A stretch of 64,000 bases of DNA, taken from contig NC_058133.1 in the NCBI RefSeq assembly GCF_016433145.1, forward strand, positions 228,402,803 to 228,466,802. Reading direction: 5' to 3'. Both the position numbers and the translations under genes were made by a program. The DNA is from Gracilinanus agilis (Eukaryota). Positions 1,144 through 45,800 of this stretch are shown one piece after another. Every line of letters begins with the position of its first letter. The stretch's first letter is position 1. Under the pieces are notes generated by a model. The model saw nothing but the letters and a program-made list of their open reading frames with translations, did not search any database and was not told the origin of the DNA.

Positions 1144-3254
1144 TGATTATTACCTCTTAATGCTGTCTTCCTCTCCTTCTTATGATAGTATTTATCCCCT
1201 CCCCTTCCCATGCCCTCTTTGTGTGTAATAGAATATCCTATTTTTCTTTTTTACTCAGATTTTTCGTGGTGTCCCCTACTATTCCCCCTCTTTTTCCCTC
1301 CCCCCATGTCATCTTAGACCATTTAGTATCCTGTACTCTCACTATGAATTATTCTTCTGGTTGCTATAATAGTGAATATTATAATAGTGAATAGAGTTCA
1401 CTACAGAGAATTATACATAGCATTTCTCCACCTATTAATACTGATAATTAGATCTTATTTAAGCCCTTAAAGAGTCAAGTTTAAAGGATTATGAGTTTTC
1501 TTTCTTTTCCCTCTGTTTCTTATTTACCTTTTCATGTTTCTCTTGATTTTTGTATTTGGGTATCAAACTTTCTATTTAGTCCTGGTCTCTTTTGTGCAAA
1601 AACTTAGAAATCTTCAATTTTGTTAAATGCCCATACTTTCTCCTGGAATTATATAGTCAGTTTCGATGGGTAGTTGATTCGTGGCTGAAGGCCCAGCTTT
1701 CTTGCCTTTCTGAATATCGTATTCCAAGCCTTGAGGTCTTTTAGCGTGGAGGCTGCCAGATCCTGTGTGGTCCTTATTGGTGCTCCTTGATATTTGAATT
1801 GTCTCTTTCTGGCTTCTTGTAAGATTTTTTGTTTTACTTGAAAGCTCTTGAATTTGGCTATTATATTCCTTGGTGTTGACTTTTCTGTGTCCAGTGTAGA
1901 GGGTGATCTATGGATCCTTTCAATGTCTATATTACCCTCTTGTTGTAGAACTTCAGGGCAATTTTGCTGAATAATTTCTTTAAGTATGGAGTCCAAGTTT
2001 CTATTAATTTCTGCCTTTTCTGGAAGACCAATGATTCTCAAATTGTCTCTTATAGACCGGTTTTCTTGGTCTGTCACTTTCTCATTGAGATATTTTATGT
2101 TTCCTTTTATTTTATCAGTCTTTTGACTTGTTTTATTTGTTCTTGTTGTCTTGCGAGATCATTGGCTTCTAATTGTTCGATTCTAGCCTTTAAGGACTGG
2201 TTTTCAGCTATAGTCTTTTGGTTTTCAGCCATAATCTTTTGGTTTTCCTTTTCATTCTGGTTATTTCTGGTCTTCAGTTGACTTGCCTCTCTTTCCCATT
2301 TCGAAATTCTGCCTTTTAAACTGTTATTTTCTTGCCAGGTTTCTTCCATCTTCCTCAACAATTCATTTTTGAACTCTTCAATAGCTTGTGACCAGCTTTC
2401 ATTTTTTGGGGGAGGTTTGGTTATTTGTTTGTCCTCCTCTGTTGTCTGGATTTTCTCTGTGTAAATGTTGTCTAGCGTTCCAGAGTTTTTCTTGGTAATC
2501 TTTTTCTTCTGGGCTTCCCTATGGCTTGCCATTATTAGCCCCACCCCTTTTCAGCTTTGTCTTCACACTTAGGGTCTGCCTGCGCTTTCTAAGCTCCCGA
2601 GGTCTCCCGTCTTCTTGCCTCGGGGTCAGGCCTCCTGGTAGTCCCCGGTCTGCCCCTCTGCCCGAGGCTCCTTCAGTGGTCTCGGGGGCTGCTTCCACAG
2701 CTGCACTCCCGTCTGCACCGAGTCCACTGGCGCATATGCTCGGGGAAAGTCCCTGCTTTATAGATCTTTATTCGCGCCCGGGGCAGAGCCTTCACCCGGG
2801 TAGACGCTGGGGAAAGTCCCTGAGTTAGCAATCTTTCTTTGCACCCGGGGCAGAGCCTTCACCGGCTTATATGCTTGGGGAAAGTCCGTGTGTCCCCCTA
2901 GCCTCTTGGGGTCCCACGTCTGGCAGCTCACAGGTACAAGCCCTGGGGCTGCTAGTGATTTACTGGTTGCCCCAATCCTGTTTTCACTCTTGTGCGTTGG
3001 CCTTGGCGCTGTGCATGGTGTGTGTGTGTGTGGGGGTGCAGGGGCTTCTTCCTCTCATGTTTTAGTGAGAGCTGTTTCACCCCTTTATAGCGTGGAAATG
3101 CCCCAATTGTGCATACCTTCAATGCTGAGCCCTGTTGTGGGGTTCCTTCATTTGTCTGGGTTCGTTTTTATGTCTCCTTGAGGAGTCCTGTATGCTTTGG
3201 TTAGGAGAGATTGAGCAGCTGCTCCTTACTCTGCTGCCATCTTAACCGGAAGTC
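1144..3254 (-). mobile_element. Older LINE-1 5' portion (5' UTR, frameshifted ORF1, inter-ORF spacer), cut off by the younger L1
   Basis: Starts GACTTCCGGTTAAGATGGC at 3254. ORF1 ATG 2532 is split into ORFs 2107-2544 and 1649-2077 (NLRIIGLPE, IERIHRSP, YPSKL motifs). Confidence 0.92.
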
Positions 3255-22400: not shown

Positions 22401-24249
22401 TAAGTCAAATAAATAAATGGCAAGCAGCTTTTTTTGGTCTCACCTACATTAAGTTATTAAATGTGAATAAATGGAGTAGTAATTATTTGCAAAACATATA
22501 TAAGAAAAAAAATTACTTGTGGGCACAAAGAAAGGAAAGTTCACAAATAACCTTTTTACAAACGGTCCTTGTGTCTGTCTCCAGCAGTCTGTTTTTATTT
22601 TTGTTTGAATGTCAGAAGCTGGCAAGGCAGAAATGCTTGATCATGCGGTCCTGTTGCAAGTAATTAAAGAACAGCAGGTGCAGCAAAAGCGACTGCTGGA
22701 CCAGCAGGAGAAGCTACTTGCTGTGATTGAGGAGCAACACAAGGAAATCCACCAGCAGAGGCAAGAAGAAGATGATGATAAGTCAAGGCAAGGTGAGGCA
22801 GTGGGCACAGATTTTGGTGCACTTGTTGATTAGAACTATCCAGGTCCTATCAAGAAAAGCAACAAAAGACAGTTTTGGTGATTAGCATGTGGATGTGGTC
22901 ATATAGACTAATTTCCCTTCACTCCTTGTCATTTTGCCTATATTTTCCATAAACCACCTTAATTTTACTAATGTCATAGGGTTATATTTGATGACAGTGA
23001 GCCTCAGTTGCCTGACATGCTATGGGGCATCTTTTGTTTTCTATCTAGTATTCTTATTTACCTGCTGTTGGATTCTTTCCATCCCTATCCTTAGAACTGT
23101 ACTTACTGGCATCCATTGTGTTTGTTTGTTTTGTTTTGTTTGCCATTAGAAATGCAACCTGAAGCAGGTGGTGGCATTCCTGTGAGTATAGAGAAGGAAA
23201 GTCAAGACTCAAAAGTTGGGGAACCACTCAAGAATGCTCTTAAACAGGGTTTAGAAGCTCCAGCCCATCCCAGAGAGCAGCAGCAGCATCCTGGTGAGGA
23301 GCCCGATGGGACTTTGGTGAAAAATAAAGCTACTTCTTCTAGCATCATCGCTGGCCCAGAGCCCCAGGTTCCCAAGGCCAGGCCACAGGACAGCAGGAAG
23401 GATAATGTTCATCCTGAAGTAGTCAAAGTGGGTAACCCTGAAGAACACATAGAAGATGCCCTTCATAAGAACTTGGGACAAGTTGATATGATTCATCTTG
23501 GTGGGCCTGCAGAAAACCCAAAAGAGAAGAAACTTGGAGTTCAGGAATTGCCTGGAAAAAGTCAAGAAGAACAAGCGAGAAGCTACCAAGAAAGAAGGAA
23601 AGCTGTAAAGGGGGTAACAATACTTTCTACTATAGCCATTTCCAAAGAGGAGAGAGCAGAAATTGAAGACTCTGAGGTGAAGACCCAGAAAAGAAGCCAA
23701 GATATAGAATTTCTAGCAGGTTATCCAGACAAATTTAAAGTTACCATCACTCGGGCCCAAGAATTGCTGCATCAGCAGAAACGCCAGAGCATTTCAAATA
23801 TTGACAGGAATGATGGCCTTCGAGGTAATCATCAACACCACCAGCTAAATTATGCTAGTCATGTGGAGACAAGAGAAGATGCCCTTGCTGCTAACAGTGA
23901 TCCTGTTATAGAGGATCAGCAGAGACCAAGGGAAGAGAATGTCCAAAATCCTGAGCAGCTAGATCCTGAGCATGGACCAAAATTGCCCAATCAAAAGTCT
24001 GACAATGGAAAACTGAACCGGGAATTAAAATCTCAAGTTGGTTCTGACCTTCAGAGGAGACGACGAGATTTGTCCCCTTATCCTGTGGAGGAGACAGGTC
24101 AGAAAGATGGTGTTATCATCAGCTTCCACTCCTTGCCAGTTGTGAATGTGGACAGTCTGAGAAGTGCATTGGACACTCAACTTCAGGTTTTGCAGGTGGT
24201 TCAGAGTAGACAAATTAAACAGTTGCCAGTGACTCAGAAAGAAGTGTGA
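5541..24249 (+). CDS. SLC38A10: SLC38A10 (putative sodium-coupled neutral amino acid transporter 10), 3' partial gene: join(5541-5688,16122-16289,16669-17127,17786-17905,[20477-20500 optional],22616-22792,23150-24249)
   Basis: All introns GT-AG with consistent phases. 2172 nt = 723 aa + stop (731 aa with microexon). Peptides [75 protein letters not shown] and RRRRDL match human SLC38A10. Earlier exons lie left of the window. Confidence 0.96.
10101..10397. mobile_element. hAT (Charlie-group) non-autonomous DNA transposon with perfect 8-bp TSD
   Basis: TIRs CAGTGATGGGCAACCT / AGGTTTGCCATCACCA; TSD GACTATTG at 10093-10100 and 10398-10405. Confidence 0.9.
10418..10659 (-). mobile_element. Mar1-like marsupial CORE-SINE
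   Basis: RTE-like tail (ttcttggcaaagatactggag...gccattttcttctccag) plus MIR core gaggaaactgaggc. Confidence 0.8.
10945..11525 (+). mobile_element. L2 3' end fragment
   Basis: gattgtgagctccttgagggcaggg ... cacagtaagagcttaataaatgcttgttga. Confidence 0.75.
11587..11960 (-). mobile_element. Opossum-type SINE split by an approximately 265-bp LTR-like insert (11614-11878)
   Basis: SINE tail aaacccttactttctgcctta resumes as caatatcaagtattgattccaaagcagaagagc after the insert. Confidence 0.6.
12065..12760 (-). mobile_element. Old L1 3' fragment
   Basis: tattatattcatataccataatttgttcagcc; ttccaaattgctttccagaatgg; tgtgcctgtcctcccacatccc. Confidence 0.7.
14390..15200 (+). mobile_element. Degenerate L2 fragments
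   Basis: Pyrimidine-rich L2 ORF2/3' motifs (cttaaattcagtatgttcaaa, ctgccaagatgattttcctaaagc). Confidence 0.55.
16122..16289 (+). CDS. SLC38A10: SLC38A10 exon 12 equivalent
   Basis: ttatag|TCCAG ... TCAAG|gtagtg; 168 nt; QNPVVEV...QIKGPVNVP...QLDRPDQG. Confidence 0.92.
16669..17127 (+). CDS. SLC38A10: SLC38A10 exon 13 equivalent
   Basis: ttttag|GTATT ... ACTG|gtaggt; 459 nt; [28 protein letters not shown]. Confidence 0.92.
17687..17760 (+). repeat. (CA)n/(CAAACA)n compound microsatellite
   Basis: Directly visible; ends 25 nt before the exon 14 acceptor. Confidence 0.97.
17786..17905 (+). CDS. SLC38A10: SLC38A10 exon 14 equivalent
   Basis: ttatag|GTGGG ... AGAAG|gtaagt; 120 nt; [10 protein letters not shown]...GSKLE. 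Confidence 0.9.
18950..19152 (-). mobile_element. Young L1 3' end running into the gap
   Basis: Poly-T, then aatcatttattaatattc, then a C-rich tract (G-rich L1 3' UTR on -). Confidence 0.7.
19153..19418. other. Assembly gap (N run), followed by (AT)n to about 19457
   Basis: N bases. Confidence 0.99.
20477..20500 (+). CDS. SLC38A10: SLC38A10 24-nt microexon (AEIKKLVA)
   Basis: cctaat branch point (20431), pyrimidine tract, TGC at 20453, aacag|CTGAGATTAAAAAGCTAGTAGCAG|gtatga. Phase 1-1 and in frame between flanking exons. Confidence 0.85.
22616..22792 (+). CDS. SLC38A10: SLC38A10 exon 15 equivalent, coiled coil
   Basis: gtcag|AAGCT ... GCAAG|gtgagg; 177 nt; near-identical to human [21 protein letters not shown]... 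Confidence 0.96.
23150..24249 (+). CDS. SLC38A10: SLC38A10 terminal coding exon
   Basis: cattag|AAATG; 1100 nt open to TGA; ends [11 protein letters not shown]...DGVII...LRSALDTQL...VVQSRQIKQ. Confidence 0.95.
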
Positions 24250-24410
24250 TCTGTCCATGCTCTGGTTGAGCTGATAAATTATGGGCATTTCAACATTCAG
24301 GAAACAAGCCTGCTGCGCCTGCCCTGACTTTTATGCTAGCTATACCAAGCTTGAAGGGTGGAGCATTGGGAGAGAATATTTGTGAATTCTGGGTACCATA
24401 ATTGGAATGA

Positions 24411-24419
<9 letters not shown>

Positions 24420-24441
<22 letters not shown>

Positions 24442-24566
24442 TTTTTTTTTTTTTTTTTTGCATACTGCTATCAGTATGCTCAGTGCTGTTCCTTTGACCC
24501 AAAGATGGCTACACTGTCTAAGCCTTAAGCTGCCCCTTCTTAAGGATCTCCTAGCATTGTATCAGA
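24420..24566 (-). mobile_element. Unidentified short retroposed sequence with poly(A) tail and 15-bp TSD
   Basis: TSD GAATGATTTCTTCTT at 24405-24419 and 24567-24581; 27-T run 24433-24459; 107-nt body. Confidence 0.82.
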
Positions 24567-25354
24567 GAATGATTTCTTCTTAAATTTTTCCTAACTCTAT
24601 CTGCCTTATGGCAAGTAAAAAAAAAATGTAAACTTTATTCCAAATCTGCTGCACTTTATTGAATTCAGAACTCATGAGGGAAAACTGCTCTGTATATTAG
24701 CTACTTGAGATCATACATAATTTTTAGATTTTTAAGGAGGTCCTTCCCTTATTAAAGCCTTTAAGTTAAATTAACAACTAACCACCCCAGGTTCTGCTGA
24801 TTTTTTTTTTTTTGCTTGTTTCTACATCAGACCAGTCTACATATATGAGAAAGGAAATCCTGAGCATAAGGCATGTAAAATGCTTTTTAGGCCTTAAAGC
24901 ACTATATAAATGTCTGTTAGTATTATCATTAATTGCTTGATCTAGTTAAATGCTTTTAGTTTAGCTGAGATTAGCTCCATTGCATTTGATATACTGAGAC
25001 CCATCAAATTGACCAAATTTGCCATTTCATCATTTCACTTAGTTTATTTTTCCTCTTGAGTTCATATTGTAAGCATTCTGACTAGAAACAATTTCTGCAC
25101 TTATGAATTTTTTTTAATTGGATCTGTGATTTCATTGCTATACAGAGAGCTCCAAATGGGAATTTTCTTTTTAAAATTTATAGTCAGAATTGCTAGGTAC
25201 ACTTGGAGGTTAAGTAACTTGACTAGAGTCACATAACTAGTATGGGTCAGAAGTGGAATGTGAACCCAGTTCTTCCCAACTTGAGGCTAGCATTATTACC
25301 TCTTGAAAACCATTTGATATTTGAGACTTCAGTGAGTTTATATTTGAATGAACA

Positions 25355-42819: not shown

Positions 42820-45800
42820 GGACTGAGTGCTGTGCCTCCCCATCTCACCTCCCCCCACTTAACCCAGAAGGGGGAGGGAGGAAGTGTTCCCATTGGCTGC
42901 TGGGCAGAGGTGCAGTGAGGAATGTCCTCAGGCATGGAGAGGGTTTGAGGAACAGCTTCACCCTGAGTACCTCTGGCTTTCTAGTAAGGAATTCTGGCAA
43001 GGGACTGCAGCCATGCCCACAGAGAGAGGACTCTGCATGCTCTTTTTGGCATCCATGCCATAGGTTCCCCATCACACTCCTACAGAGTGGAACAGAGAGA
43101 CTGCAGAGAAGTTATTGAGGAATGCAGGAAGTGGGGCTTTTTGGAGCAATCTAGTGCTCATATACAGAGAATCATTTCTAAATGGACTGGAATCAAGAAG
43201 TCATTCTATACATTTGGGAGTAAATGGCATCTAAACTCAGAGCCTCAGGTTTTTTTTTTTCCTTCTATTCCCTGTCTTCTTTGTTTTGTAGTATTTGGGG
43301 GTCTTCCAGATCCTCTTCATGGAAACAGCTTGTATCAGAAGGTCCGAATGGCTGCTCAGGTGAGTCTCAAAGCTAGGGTTTAAAGTTAAGCAATGTTGGA
43401 CAAGGAGGCCTCCCTCTGGGTCCTAGCCTATTGAACATTCTAAGTTTGGGGAGAGTCATTCTGGGGTCTCAGAATTGGTCTTCCAGTTTCCTTTTCTTTC
43501 TCACCCAGACAGTGAGATCATCTTTGAGGTGTTGCTTGCTGATATGAGGACTCAGGGACAGAATTTCCATTCATTATTGTTTATTCAGGCCCCTTTAGCT
43601 TCTCACTCAGTAAGGAAGAGATCCTGGGGCTGGGGGCTCCAGAGCCCAGAGTGGAGACCTGGAAGGACAGCAGAAGGCAGGACCTAGAGCTGTGGTAGAC
43701 ACTAATGGACACTGATATATTTTCCATCCCTCTTCTAGGACTTGGCAAGTGCTTTGTTTTCTGATTCTCTGTTGCCATTGCCTTCCACTCAGTCTCCTAG
43801 GCCCCTTCCTTCAACAGGTAAAGTAGATACTCCCTTCTCATCTTCCTTTCCCTTTCAGTCAGTTTCCAGCCCCTTTTATCCCTGGGCCCTTTTAAGTCAG
43901 TTCTTACTGAGACAAAATGGAGAGAATCTATCATCTCTCTTTGTTCCCTTCTCCCTGGAGATCCTCTATTCAGTGAATGTAGAATTGCTCCTTAGAAAGA
44001 CCAGCCTCATTTCCAACTGAAAGTGTTTTTCTTTCTCCCAAGGTATGGGCTCCCAGGCCAGTTCCTATAGCACCCTCCAAGGCTTTGGCTACACCAAAGA
44101 CAGGGGAAGTTCTGGTGAGTATTTACAGTGGAACTCCATTTCCAGCCCTCTTAGTTCAGAGGCTTCTCTTGCTGATCTTACTGCTCTGTCCATCTGAAGA
44201 TGGCATGGGCCAGGCAGCCAGAGGGTCTTTTGGAAAACCAATCAACAGAAATAAGGTAGGTAAGGCTTTATTTGCAAAATTTCAAGTGCTATATCAGGGA
44301 GAGAAAAAAGCCTAGGGTATCTTGATTTCTCTGAAGCACAGTTCATAGAAATAAAGGCTAAGGACTTTGAGGACTAAGGATTTGGCAACACTGTTACCAG
44401 GGTTTAGAGCCATGCTCAGGAAATGGGCACTGTGGCCTTGACCTAAGTTCAAGAAAGTTGAGAGCTGAGTCTTGGGTTGGTCAGAGAGGAGGCAACCTGA
44501 GGCTTGACTTCCAATAATATCTGGGACTATCGAAGTGGTCCTCTGACCTTCCCTTCTCCTCACTAGATTCACATTTATTTTGTCTTGTTTTTTTAAATAA
44601 GATCAAAGAATGTTGAAGGGTGGGAAGAGGGGAAGAGTGAGAAAGTGAGAGTGAGCTGTGGTATAATGCTATAAGGAGTGTCAAATTAGAGTCAGGAAGG
44701 CCTGGATTCAAGTCCTTCCTCAGAAACTTACTAGCTGAGAGACCATGAGCAAGCCACATAAACACTCTGCGCCTCTCTTTCATTATCATCAAGAGAAGTG
44801 TAGTATAGATTAAACTGTTATGAACACAAGAGGATTGTGTTATTAACACAATCAGAGAAGTACTGTTGTTTAGCTAAGATATAGGAGCAGAGATTTGCTT
44901 CCCACACTAGCCTGACAAAGCTTCCCTGAAGGAGTTAGAATTCTCAAGACTGACTTCAAACCCTAGTAACAGCTCCTAGCTGTCTGTTGGATTAGATGTA
45001 ACTAGGAAGTAGGTCTTGACTTCCTAGGACCTTAACAATGTTTATGGGTTTAGCACCAGCTTGATCTAGATGTAATTTGATCAACTAGGTTGTTACCATG
45101 ATCTGATTAGGATTATCTGTTGTCTTTAATAAGGTAAGTTGTCTAACTCTCTCTCTCTTTTTTTTTTTTTTTTTTTTTTTAATTTTTATCCTGGGACTCC
45201 ATTCAAGGAGCATAGGGCCACAACCAGTAGGCAATGGGACACATAGTCGCTCAGGGTCACCCAGCTGGGAAGTGTCTGAGCCCGGACTTGAACCTAGGAC
45301 CTTTCGTCTCTAGGCCTGGCTCTCAATCCACTGAGCTAGCCCAGCTGCCCCTACTTGTCTAACTCTTGAATAAGACTATTAGAGACTTGAAGATTAACTG
45401 GGTTTATTTGGGTAATTTGACAGGAAGGTAAACTGAGAGATGGAAGAGAGGGAAGTAGGTGAACCCTGATTAATCTTGCCTAAAAGTATAATAAGTTATG
45501 TTAATATTTAAATATAAAGATGTCCTAGGTGCAGAGATCAAGGGACTTTTGAGAGTCTCCCTTGACTCTGAAATTAGTATGGAATCTGTTTGATGCTGAG
45601 CCCAGGGAACTATAAAGTCTCCCTAGGTCAGAGGCTATTTTTGATTCTTGATAGTTTAATAAGGTGATTTTATTTGGTAAAGTTCATGTAGCCTATCAAT
45701 ACTATGATTATTGATATAGTTAGCAATGTAGTTAACCCTGCTTGCCTGCCTATATCAATCTCTCTCCTCCTGAGGCCCAGATAGCAAACACCCTCCTGCC

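What the first reader, a model, noticed from the sequence alone, without database searches (positions are those of the whole stretch)
24405..24581. Unidentified hairpin-rich RNA retroposed antisense into the SLC38A10 3' UTR
Exact 15-bp TSD, poly(A) tail and a TTT|AAGA target site on the minus strand are L1 TPRT hallmarks. The 107-nt body matches no SINE, LINE end or snRNA I recognise and has no poly(A) hexamer before the tail, so it is probably not an mRNA end. It ends in a perfect hairpin GCATACTG-ATAG-CAGTATGC abutting the tail, with further stems CCTTAAG/CTTAAGG (24523-24545) and CTTTG/CAAAG. It may come from an undescribed marsupial small RNA or SINE family. It also places a 27-U tract about 180 nt after the stop codon.
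Basis: partly seen in the sequence, partly recalled or inferred. Interest (0 to 1): 0.7.

Follow-up and report, generated by a model that had tools for sequence, protein, structure and literature searches.

The report
Old orphan insert in transporter UTR
A 107-base piece with an A-tail and short flanking repeats sits behind the stop codon of an amino-acid-transporter gene; it is likely an old, one-off copy of some ordinary RNA pasted in by LINE-1, it is shared with a related species, and it shows no sign of being a new small RNA or mobile-element family.

Summary
The anatomy is real: an exact 15-nt direct repeat, a 27-T run, an endonuclease-like site and an 8-bp hairpin. The tail is compound, (TTC)7.7 running into T27, and the TTC array overlaps the left repeat copy. 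The insert is not young. Contigs of related organisms B and C (about 94% identical) carry the body, with a net 24 nt less in the tail region. An older copy of this UTR elsewhere in the genome (L002, about 84%) already holds the body, a 9-nt tail and both repeat copies, the left one decayed. No empty site, source gene, family or Rfam match was found. The proposed RNA folds no better than shuffles (z -1.25), all 3 paired positions that differ in B break its stems, and L002 lacks the terminal hairpin. Best reading: a likely old, single L1-made retrocopy of an ordinary transcript end, whose tail later grew into a microsatellite. Native UTR with a chance repeat is the main rival. Low interest.

The parts
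23095..24249 (+). Open frame holding the last coding exon of the host gene (Aa_trans-family transporter, SLC38A10 by recall); stop at 24247-24249
   Evidence: Pfam PF01490 match at G000:C4:228381456-228381719 (+), 21 kb before the window start; contigs of B and C run through it
24405..24419 (-). Direct-repeat copy behind the tail (putative 3' target-site duplication); its last 8 letters on the plus strand overlap the TTC array
   Evidence: decayed in L002: first 9 letters exact, 11 of 15 ungapped
24412..24434 (+). (TTC)7.7 microsatellite, likely seeded by the repeat end and the tail
   Evidence: absent from L002
24433..24459 (-). 27-A tail of the insert (a U tract in the host transcript if this is in the mRNA)
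   Evidence: 9 nt in L002; region 24404-24467 net 24 nt shorter in B and C
24460..24566 (-). 107-nt body of unknown source
   Evidence: 2 matches in the own genome, itself and L002; no Rfam match near a gathering score; no tRNA
24460..24479 (.). Perfect 8-bp hairpin, perfect only in this genome
   Evidence: 24476 differs in B and C and breaks a pair on the minus strand; absent from L002
24567..24581 (-). Direct-repeat copy before the body (putative 5' target-site duplication), preceded on the minus strand by TTT: an L1-endonuclease-like site
   Evidence: 15 of 15 kept in L002
24390..24781 (+). Stretch of the UTR that was copied to L002 (G000:C4, 23.66 Mb); the copy ends 25 nt behind ATTAAA at 24751-24756, a likely poly(A) signal of the host gene

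Best explanation
The 107-nt body is likely an old, single-copy retrocopy: LINE-1 machinery likely nicked the T-rich site behind the transporter's stop codon, copied the A-tailed end of some ordinary cellular transcript into it in the antisense direction, and left a 15-nt duplication. This happened before the UTR was copied to L002 and before this species split from organism B (inferred from the shared body and the pattern of differences). Afterwards the tail and the repeat end likely slipped into a (TTC)n-T(n) microsatellite of lineage-variable length, and a substitution at 24476 made the end hairpin perfect in this genome only. The piece likely now travels as passive 3' UTR sequence; the source has likely diverged beyond what the searches can see.
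For: Shown: exact 15-nt repeat, A tail and TTT|AAGA site in the TPRT order; L1 hallmarks are a 5'-TTTT/A cleavage site, poly(A) and TSD (PMC4476161, passage), TSDs 8-30 nt (PMC5322556, passage). The same order is present in L002 with a 9-nt tail, the right copy 15/15 and the left copy 11/15 ungapped. A 12-nt or longer repeat beside a T run was found for 6 of 41 runs, a 15-nt one only here. Age: body present in contigs X5, X10 (organism B) and X6 (C), 91-92 other letters over 23700-25297 in X5 and X6; at 8 alignable sites where this genome and B differ, L002 sides with B at 4, with this genome at 3, with neither at 1, as an outgroup to both would. L002 is the derived copy: its two flanks are 13 nt apart in another copy of the host repeat, L048, against 390 nt in L002. 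No extra conservation: body 13 of 87 differences to L002, right flank 32 of 199, P 0.86. GAA arrays commonly arise from retroposon A tails (PMC3812793, passage).
Against: No empty site was seen in any of the three comparisons, so insertion itself is not shown. No source locus was found in two DNA searches and four pattern searches. No poly(A) hexamer in the body. Eight letters of the left repeat copy overlap the microsatellite, and in L002 only the first 9 letters are exact. The letters of B and C in 24404-24467 were masked by the tool, so their left repeat copy and the first hairpin arm could not be read. B and C show the same differences in nearly all visible rows and count as one lineage.
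Confidence: 0.6

Rival explanations
1. Nothing was inserted: the body is native 3' UTR, a 9-nt chance repeat lies beside a short T run, and microsatellite growth in this lineage extended the match to 15 nt and the run to 27.
For: No empty site and no source; body and flank diverge alike; the left copy in L002 is exact for 9 letters only and has no TTC array; the 9-mer occurs 7 times in 248 kb of both strands, 4 of these being the copies in question.
Against: The repeat abuts the tract on one side and an endonuclease-like site on the other; the L002 left copy still matches 11 of 15; only 2 of 41 T/A runs had a 9-11-nt partner without a longer one; the array would have had to be TTC to match the other copy.
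Confidence: 0.25
2. The body is the retrocopy of an undescribed marsupial small RNA or of a low-copy SINE whose source is lost, unassembled or diverged.
For: No poly(A) hexamer; hairpin abuts the tail in this genome and 7 of 8 pairs would remain in B if the masked arm is unchanged; A-tailed snRNA retrocopies with TSDs are a known product (PMC4476161, passage); pattern searches would miss relatives more than about 20% diverged.
Against: Only 2 loci by DNA search; 27-nt patterns with 3 mismatches found 1 and 2 places, all self or L002; the other 28 of 30 matches and the third match share nothing outside the motif; Rfam best E 1.4 and 0.54, all far below gathering; z -1.25 and +0.39; 3 of 3 paired differences in B break the stems.
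Confidence: 0.07
3. A repair-type templated insertion, not L1 reverse transcription: a stretch ending in a genomic A run was patched into a staggered break, which also leaves a short duplication.
For: No hexamer; short tail in L002; the same genome shows a tail-less patch of this very UTR at L002.
Against: A run exactly at the 3' end and an endonuclease-like site at the duplication fit L1 better; no donor found in the window or fetched loci (nhmmer).
Confidence: 0.08

Closest known systems
5'-truncated L1-made processed pseudogenes (retrocopies of mRNA or lncRNA 3' ends)
   Same: Short unique body, A tail, 15-nt duplication, TT|AAGA-type site, single copy.
   Different: No parent found, no poly(A) hexamer, no empty site seen.
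Poly(A)-extended snRNA pseudogenes (PMC4476161, passages read)
   Same: A tail plus TSD plus L1-like cleavage site on a short RNA-sized body without hexamer.
   Different: Body matches no Rfam family; no structure kept between lineages.
Retroposon-tail microsatellites, GAA arrays from A tails (PMC3812793, passages read)
   Same: (GAA)n fused to an A run at the end of a putative retroposed piece, variable in length between lineages.
   Different: Parent here is not an Alu, L1 or other catalogued repeat as far as tested.
Marsupial SINEs (SINE1_Mdo and CORE-SINEs; names recalled)
   Same: Size range, A-rich end, TSD.
   Different: No family, no tRNA-like head, no match to the SINE-like repeats of the window.

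Membership tests
L1-mediated retrocopy (TPRT product) | Target-site duplication of 8-30 nt | tested here: met
   15 nt exact; decayed but present in L002; partly overlaps a microsatellite
L1-mediated retrocopy (TPRT product) | 3' poly(A) tail | tested here: met
   A27 plus (GAA)n here, A9 in L002
L1-mediated retrocopy (TPRT product) | Endonuclease site like 5'-TTTT/A | tested here: met
   TTT|AAGA on the minus strand, one letter off the consensus
L1-mediated retrocopy (TPRT product) | Empty site in an outgroup | tested here: inconclusive
   B, C and L002 are all filled; no deeper outgroup was reachable; run X16 laid nothing
L1-mediated retrocopy (TPRT product) | Identifiable parent transcript | tested here: inconclusive
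   None; these searches miss diverged parents
SINE family | Many dispersed copies | tested here: not met
   2 loci, the second a copy of the whole UTR stretch
SINE family | Head derived from tRNA, 7SL or 5S RNA | tested here: not met
   ARAGORN 0 genes; Rfam none; a 5'-truncated copy would lack the head
SINE family | Match to a Dfam/Repbase consensus | not testable with these tools
   No repeat library is offered
Known small RNA (snRNA, snoRNA, Y, vault, 7SK) pseudogene | Match to an Rfam family | tested here: not met
   5 and 10 rows up to E 10, none near gathering
Structured non-coding RNA | Fold better than shuffles and kept between lineages | tested here: not met
   z -1.25, +0.39 in L002; 3 of 3 paired differences in B break pairs on the minus strand; plus strand 4 of 6 kept, three by G-U
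Structured non-coding RNA | Expression as a discrete short RNA | not testable with these tools
   Only assembled contigs were offered, no raw or small-RNA reads

The most novel reading that the evidence does not exclude
The body is the fossil 3' end of a marsupial-specific structured small RNA that was A-tailed and retroposed once, early in opossum or marsupial evolution, and whose antisense copy was then kept in the transporter's 3' UTR as a U-tract plus stem-loop control element (the sense strand folds at z -2.1 and keeps 4 of 6 changed pairs).
Probability: 0.06. Interest if true: 0.5.

Novelty: new member of a known kind. Interest (0 to 1): 0.13.

Why it matters
Little as it stands: mammalian genomes hold very many old orphan retrocopies and tail-derived microsatellites. 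If an empty site turns up in another marsupial order, the insert is one usable presence/absence marker for marsupial phylogeny, and the tail array is a length-variable marker in an expressed UTR. Only if a conserved source RNA were found would it point to a new small RNA.

Tried and rejected
Rfam at E up to 10 on the window stretch and on L002: chance-level rows only. L002 as the tail-less source locus: rejected, it holds both flanks, tail and repeats and is itself an insertion. Excess of matches (30 against 7 control): all 28 other places were read, 5-20 of 55 and 5-12 of 31 letters alike outside the motif; several belong to an unrelated dispersed repeat. L007: motif only. Search for an older retrocopy with an empty site: none, with UTR or last exon as query. 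A sequence-only model of the body was built but could not be run on the whole genome, so the most sensitive source search is open; a profile over the window and fetched loci found only self and L002 above motif level. Runs X15-X20 held about 2 words each; only X16 was laid and gave nothing: no evidence either way. Protein atlas gave no usable hit for the last exon. Earlier scan notes: nothing on this place or sequence. Paper searches listed no paper on this insert; I saw listings and abstract starts, and passages of three papers; supplements were not opened and repeat tables there could bear on the family question.

Full report
Observation. The run starts 184 nt behind the stop of a long open frame that belongs to an Aa_trans-family gene (Pfam match 21 kb upstream, same strand); the name SLC38A10 is recalled from the protein's C-terminus and came from no call. 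Tandem Repeats Finder adds a (TTC)7.7 array at 24412-24434 that overlaps the last 8 letters of the left repeat copy. A repeat of 12 nt or more beside a T/A run was found for 6 of 41 runs in 124 kb, and a 15-nt one only here, so the arrangement is not ordinary chance, though part of the match could be owed to the array.

Copies in the own genome. DNA searches with the body, with the L002 version of it and with the whole UTR gave 2 places each: the window and G000:C4 at 23.66 Mb, L002. Patterns from the 5' part, the middle and the 3' end gave 3, 30, 1 and 2 places; every place other than the window and L002 was read and shares only the motif. The tool warns that DNA searches skip common words, and patterns miss relatives beyond about 20% divergence, so a small old family or a diverged parent is not excluded; a young or large family is.

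What L002 is. It is not a tail-less source. L002 1275-1655 matches window 24390-24781 on both sides of the insert. Its flanks are two halves of one old dispersed repeat: 13 nt apart in L048, 390 nt apart in L002. So L002 is a derived copy of the UTR. It ends 25 nt behind an ATTAAA, which suggests, but does not show, that it came from the host mRNA. It carries the body, a 9-nt tail, the right repeat copy intact and the left copy with 9 letters exact and 11 of 15 ungapped, no TTC array, 20 extra letters in the body and no terminal hairpin.

Relatives. Contigs of organisms B (X5, X10) and C (X6), guessed by the tool to be RNA, run through the whole region, X5 and X6 in one piece from 23700 to 25297 with 91 and 92 other letters. 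They hold the body. From record positions and bin depths, 24404-24467 is net 24 nt shorter there; the tool masks those letters, so the left repeat copy could not be read. B and C share nearly all visible differences and count as one lineage; table 3 showed 40 rows and left 81 out. At 8 alignable sites where this genome and B differ, L002 sides with B at 4, with this genome at 3 and with neither at 1, as expected if L002 split off at or before the species split. The insert is therefore older than both events. No empty site was seen.

Structure. The proposed RNA folds at z -1.25; the L002 version at +0.39. Of 8 differences to B in the visible body, 3 fall in pairs and all 3 break them, one in the terminal hairpin; 5 fall in loops, which is no significant depletion (P 0.22). 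Against my reading: the plus strand folds at z -2.10 and keeps 4 of 6 changed pairs, three through G-U; this is weak and would concern the host mRNA, not the retroposed RNA. The body differs from L002 at 13 of 87 letters, the right flank at 32 of 199, so nothing marks it as more conserved. Rfam and ARAGORN give nothing.

Mechanism. Shown: repeat, tail, target-like site, presence in B, C and L002, variable tail. Inferred: insertion by L1 target-primed reverse transcription (hallmarks as in PMC4476161 and PMC5322556, passages read); an ordinary transcript end as template; later growth of the tail into a GAA/A microsatellite (PMC3812793, passages read); a late substitution that perfected the hairpin (direction not provable without an outgroup). 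I put 0.6 on this, 0.25 on native UTR with a chance repeat, 0.08 on a repair patch and 0.07 on an unknown small RNA or SINE.

Verdict. It works like a 5'-truncated L1 retrocopy and meets three of five features of that class, with empty site and parent open. It fails the tests for a SINE family and for a structured small RNA. Four paper searches listed nothing on this insert, which says little for so small a feature. That the genome is a marsupial's rests on recall of its repeats and on earlier scan notes. A new member of a common kind; interest 0.13.

Noticed in passing
L002:1275-1655 (G000:C4, 23.66 Mb): About 380 nt of the transporter's 3' UTR inserted into an old dispersed repeat (L3/CR1-like by recall), with no evident tail or duplication, ending 25 nt behind ATTAAA: a likely RNA-templated or repair-type patch.
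   Followed up: partly
window 24751-24781 and beyond: Likely proximal poly(A) signal at 24751; contig X10 ends at 24843 while X5 and X6 run past 25297, a weak hint of more than one 3' end.
   Followed up: no
window 24254-24291: This genome has 19 letters more than organisms B and C right behind the stop codon.
   Followed up: no
G000:C13218:919-2067: Intron-less, near full-length Aa_trans match with one stop on a small contig: likely a processed pseudogene of a transporter.
   Followed up: no
window 1649-2550, minus strand: Two open frames that look like a broken LINE-1 ORF1 (by recall) inside an intron of the host gene.
   Followed up: no
window 45139-45366: SINE-like repeat with A tail and a 12-nt or longer duplication, a local example of the same insertion footprint.
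   Followed up: no
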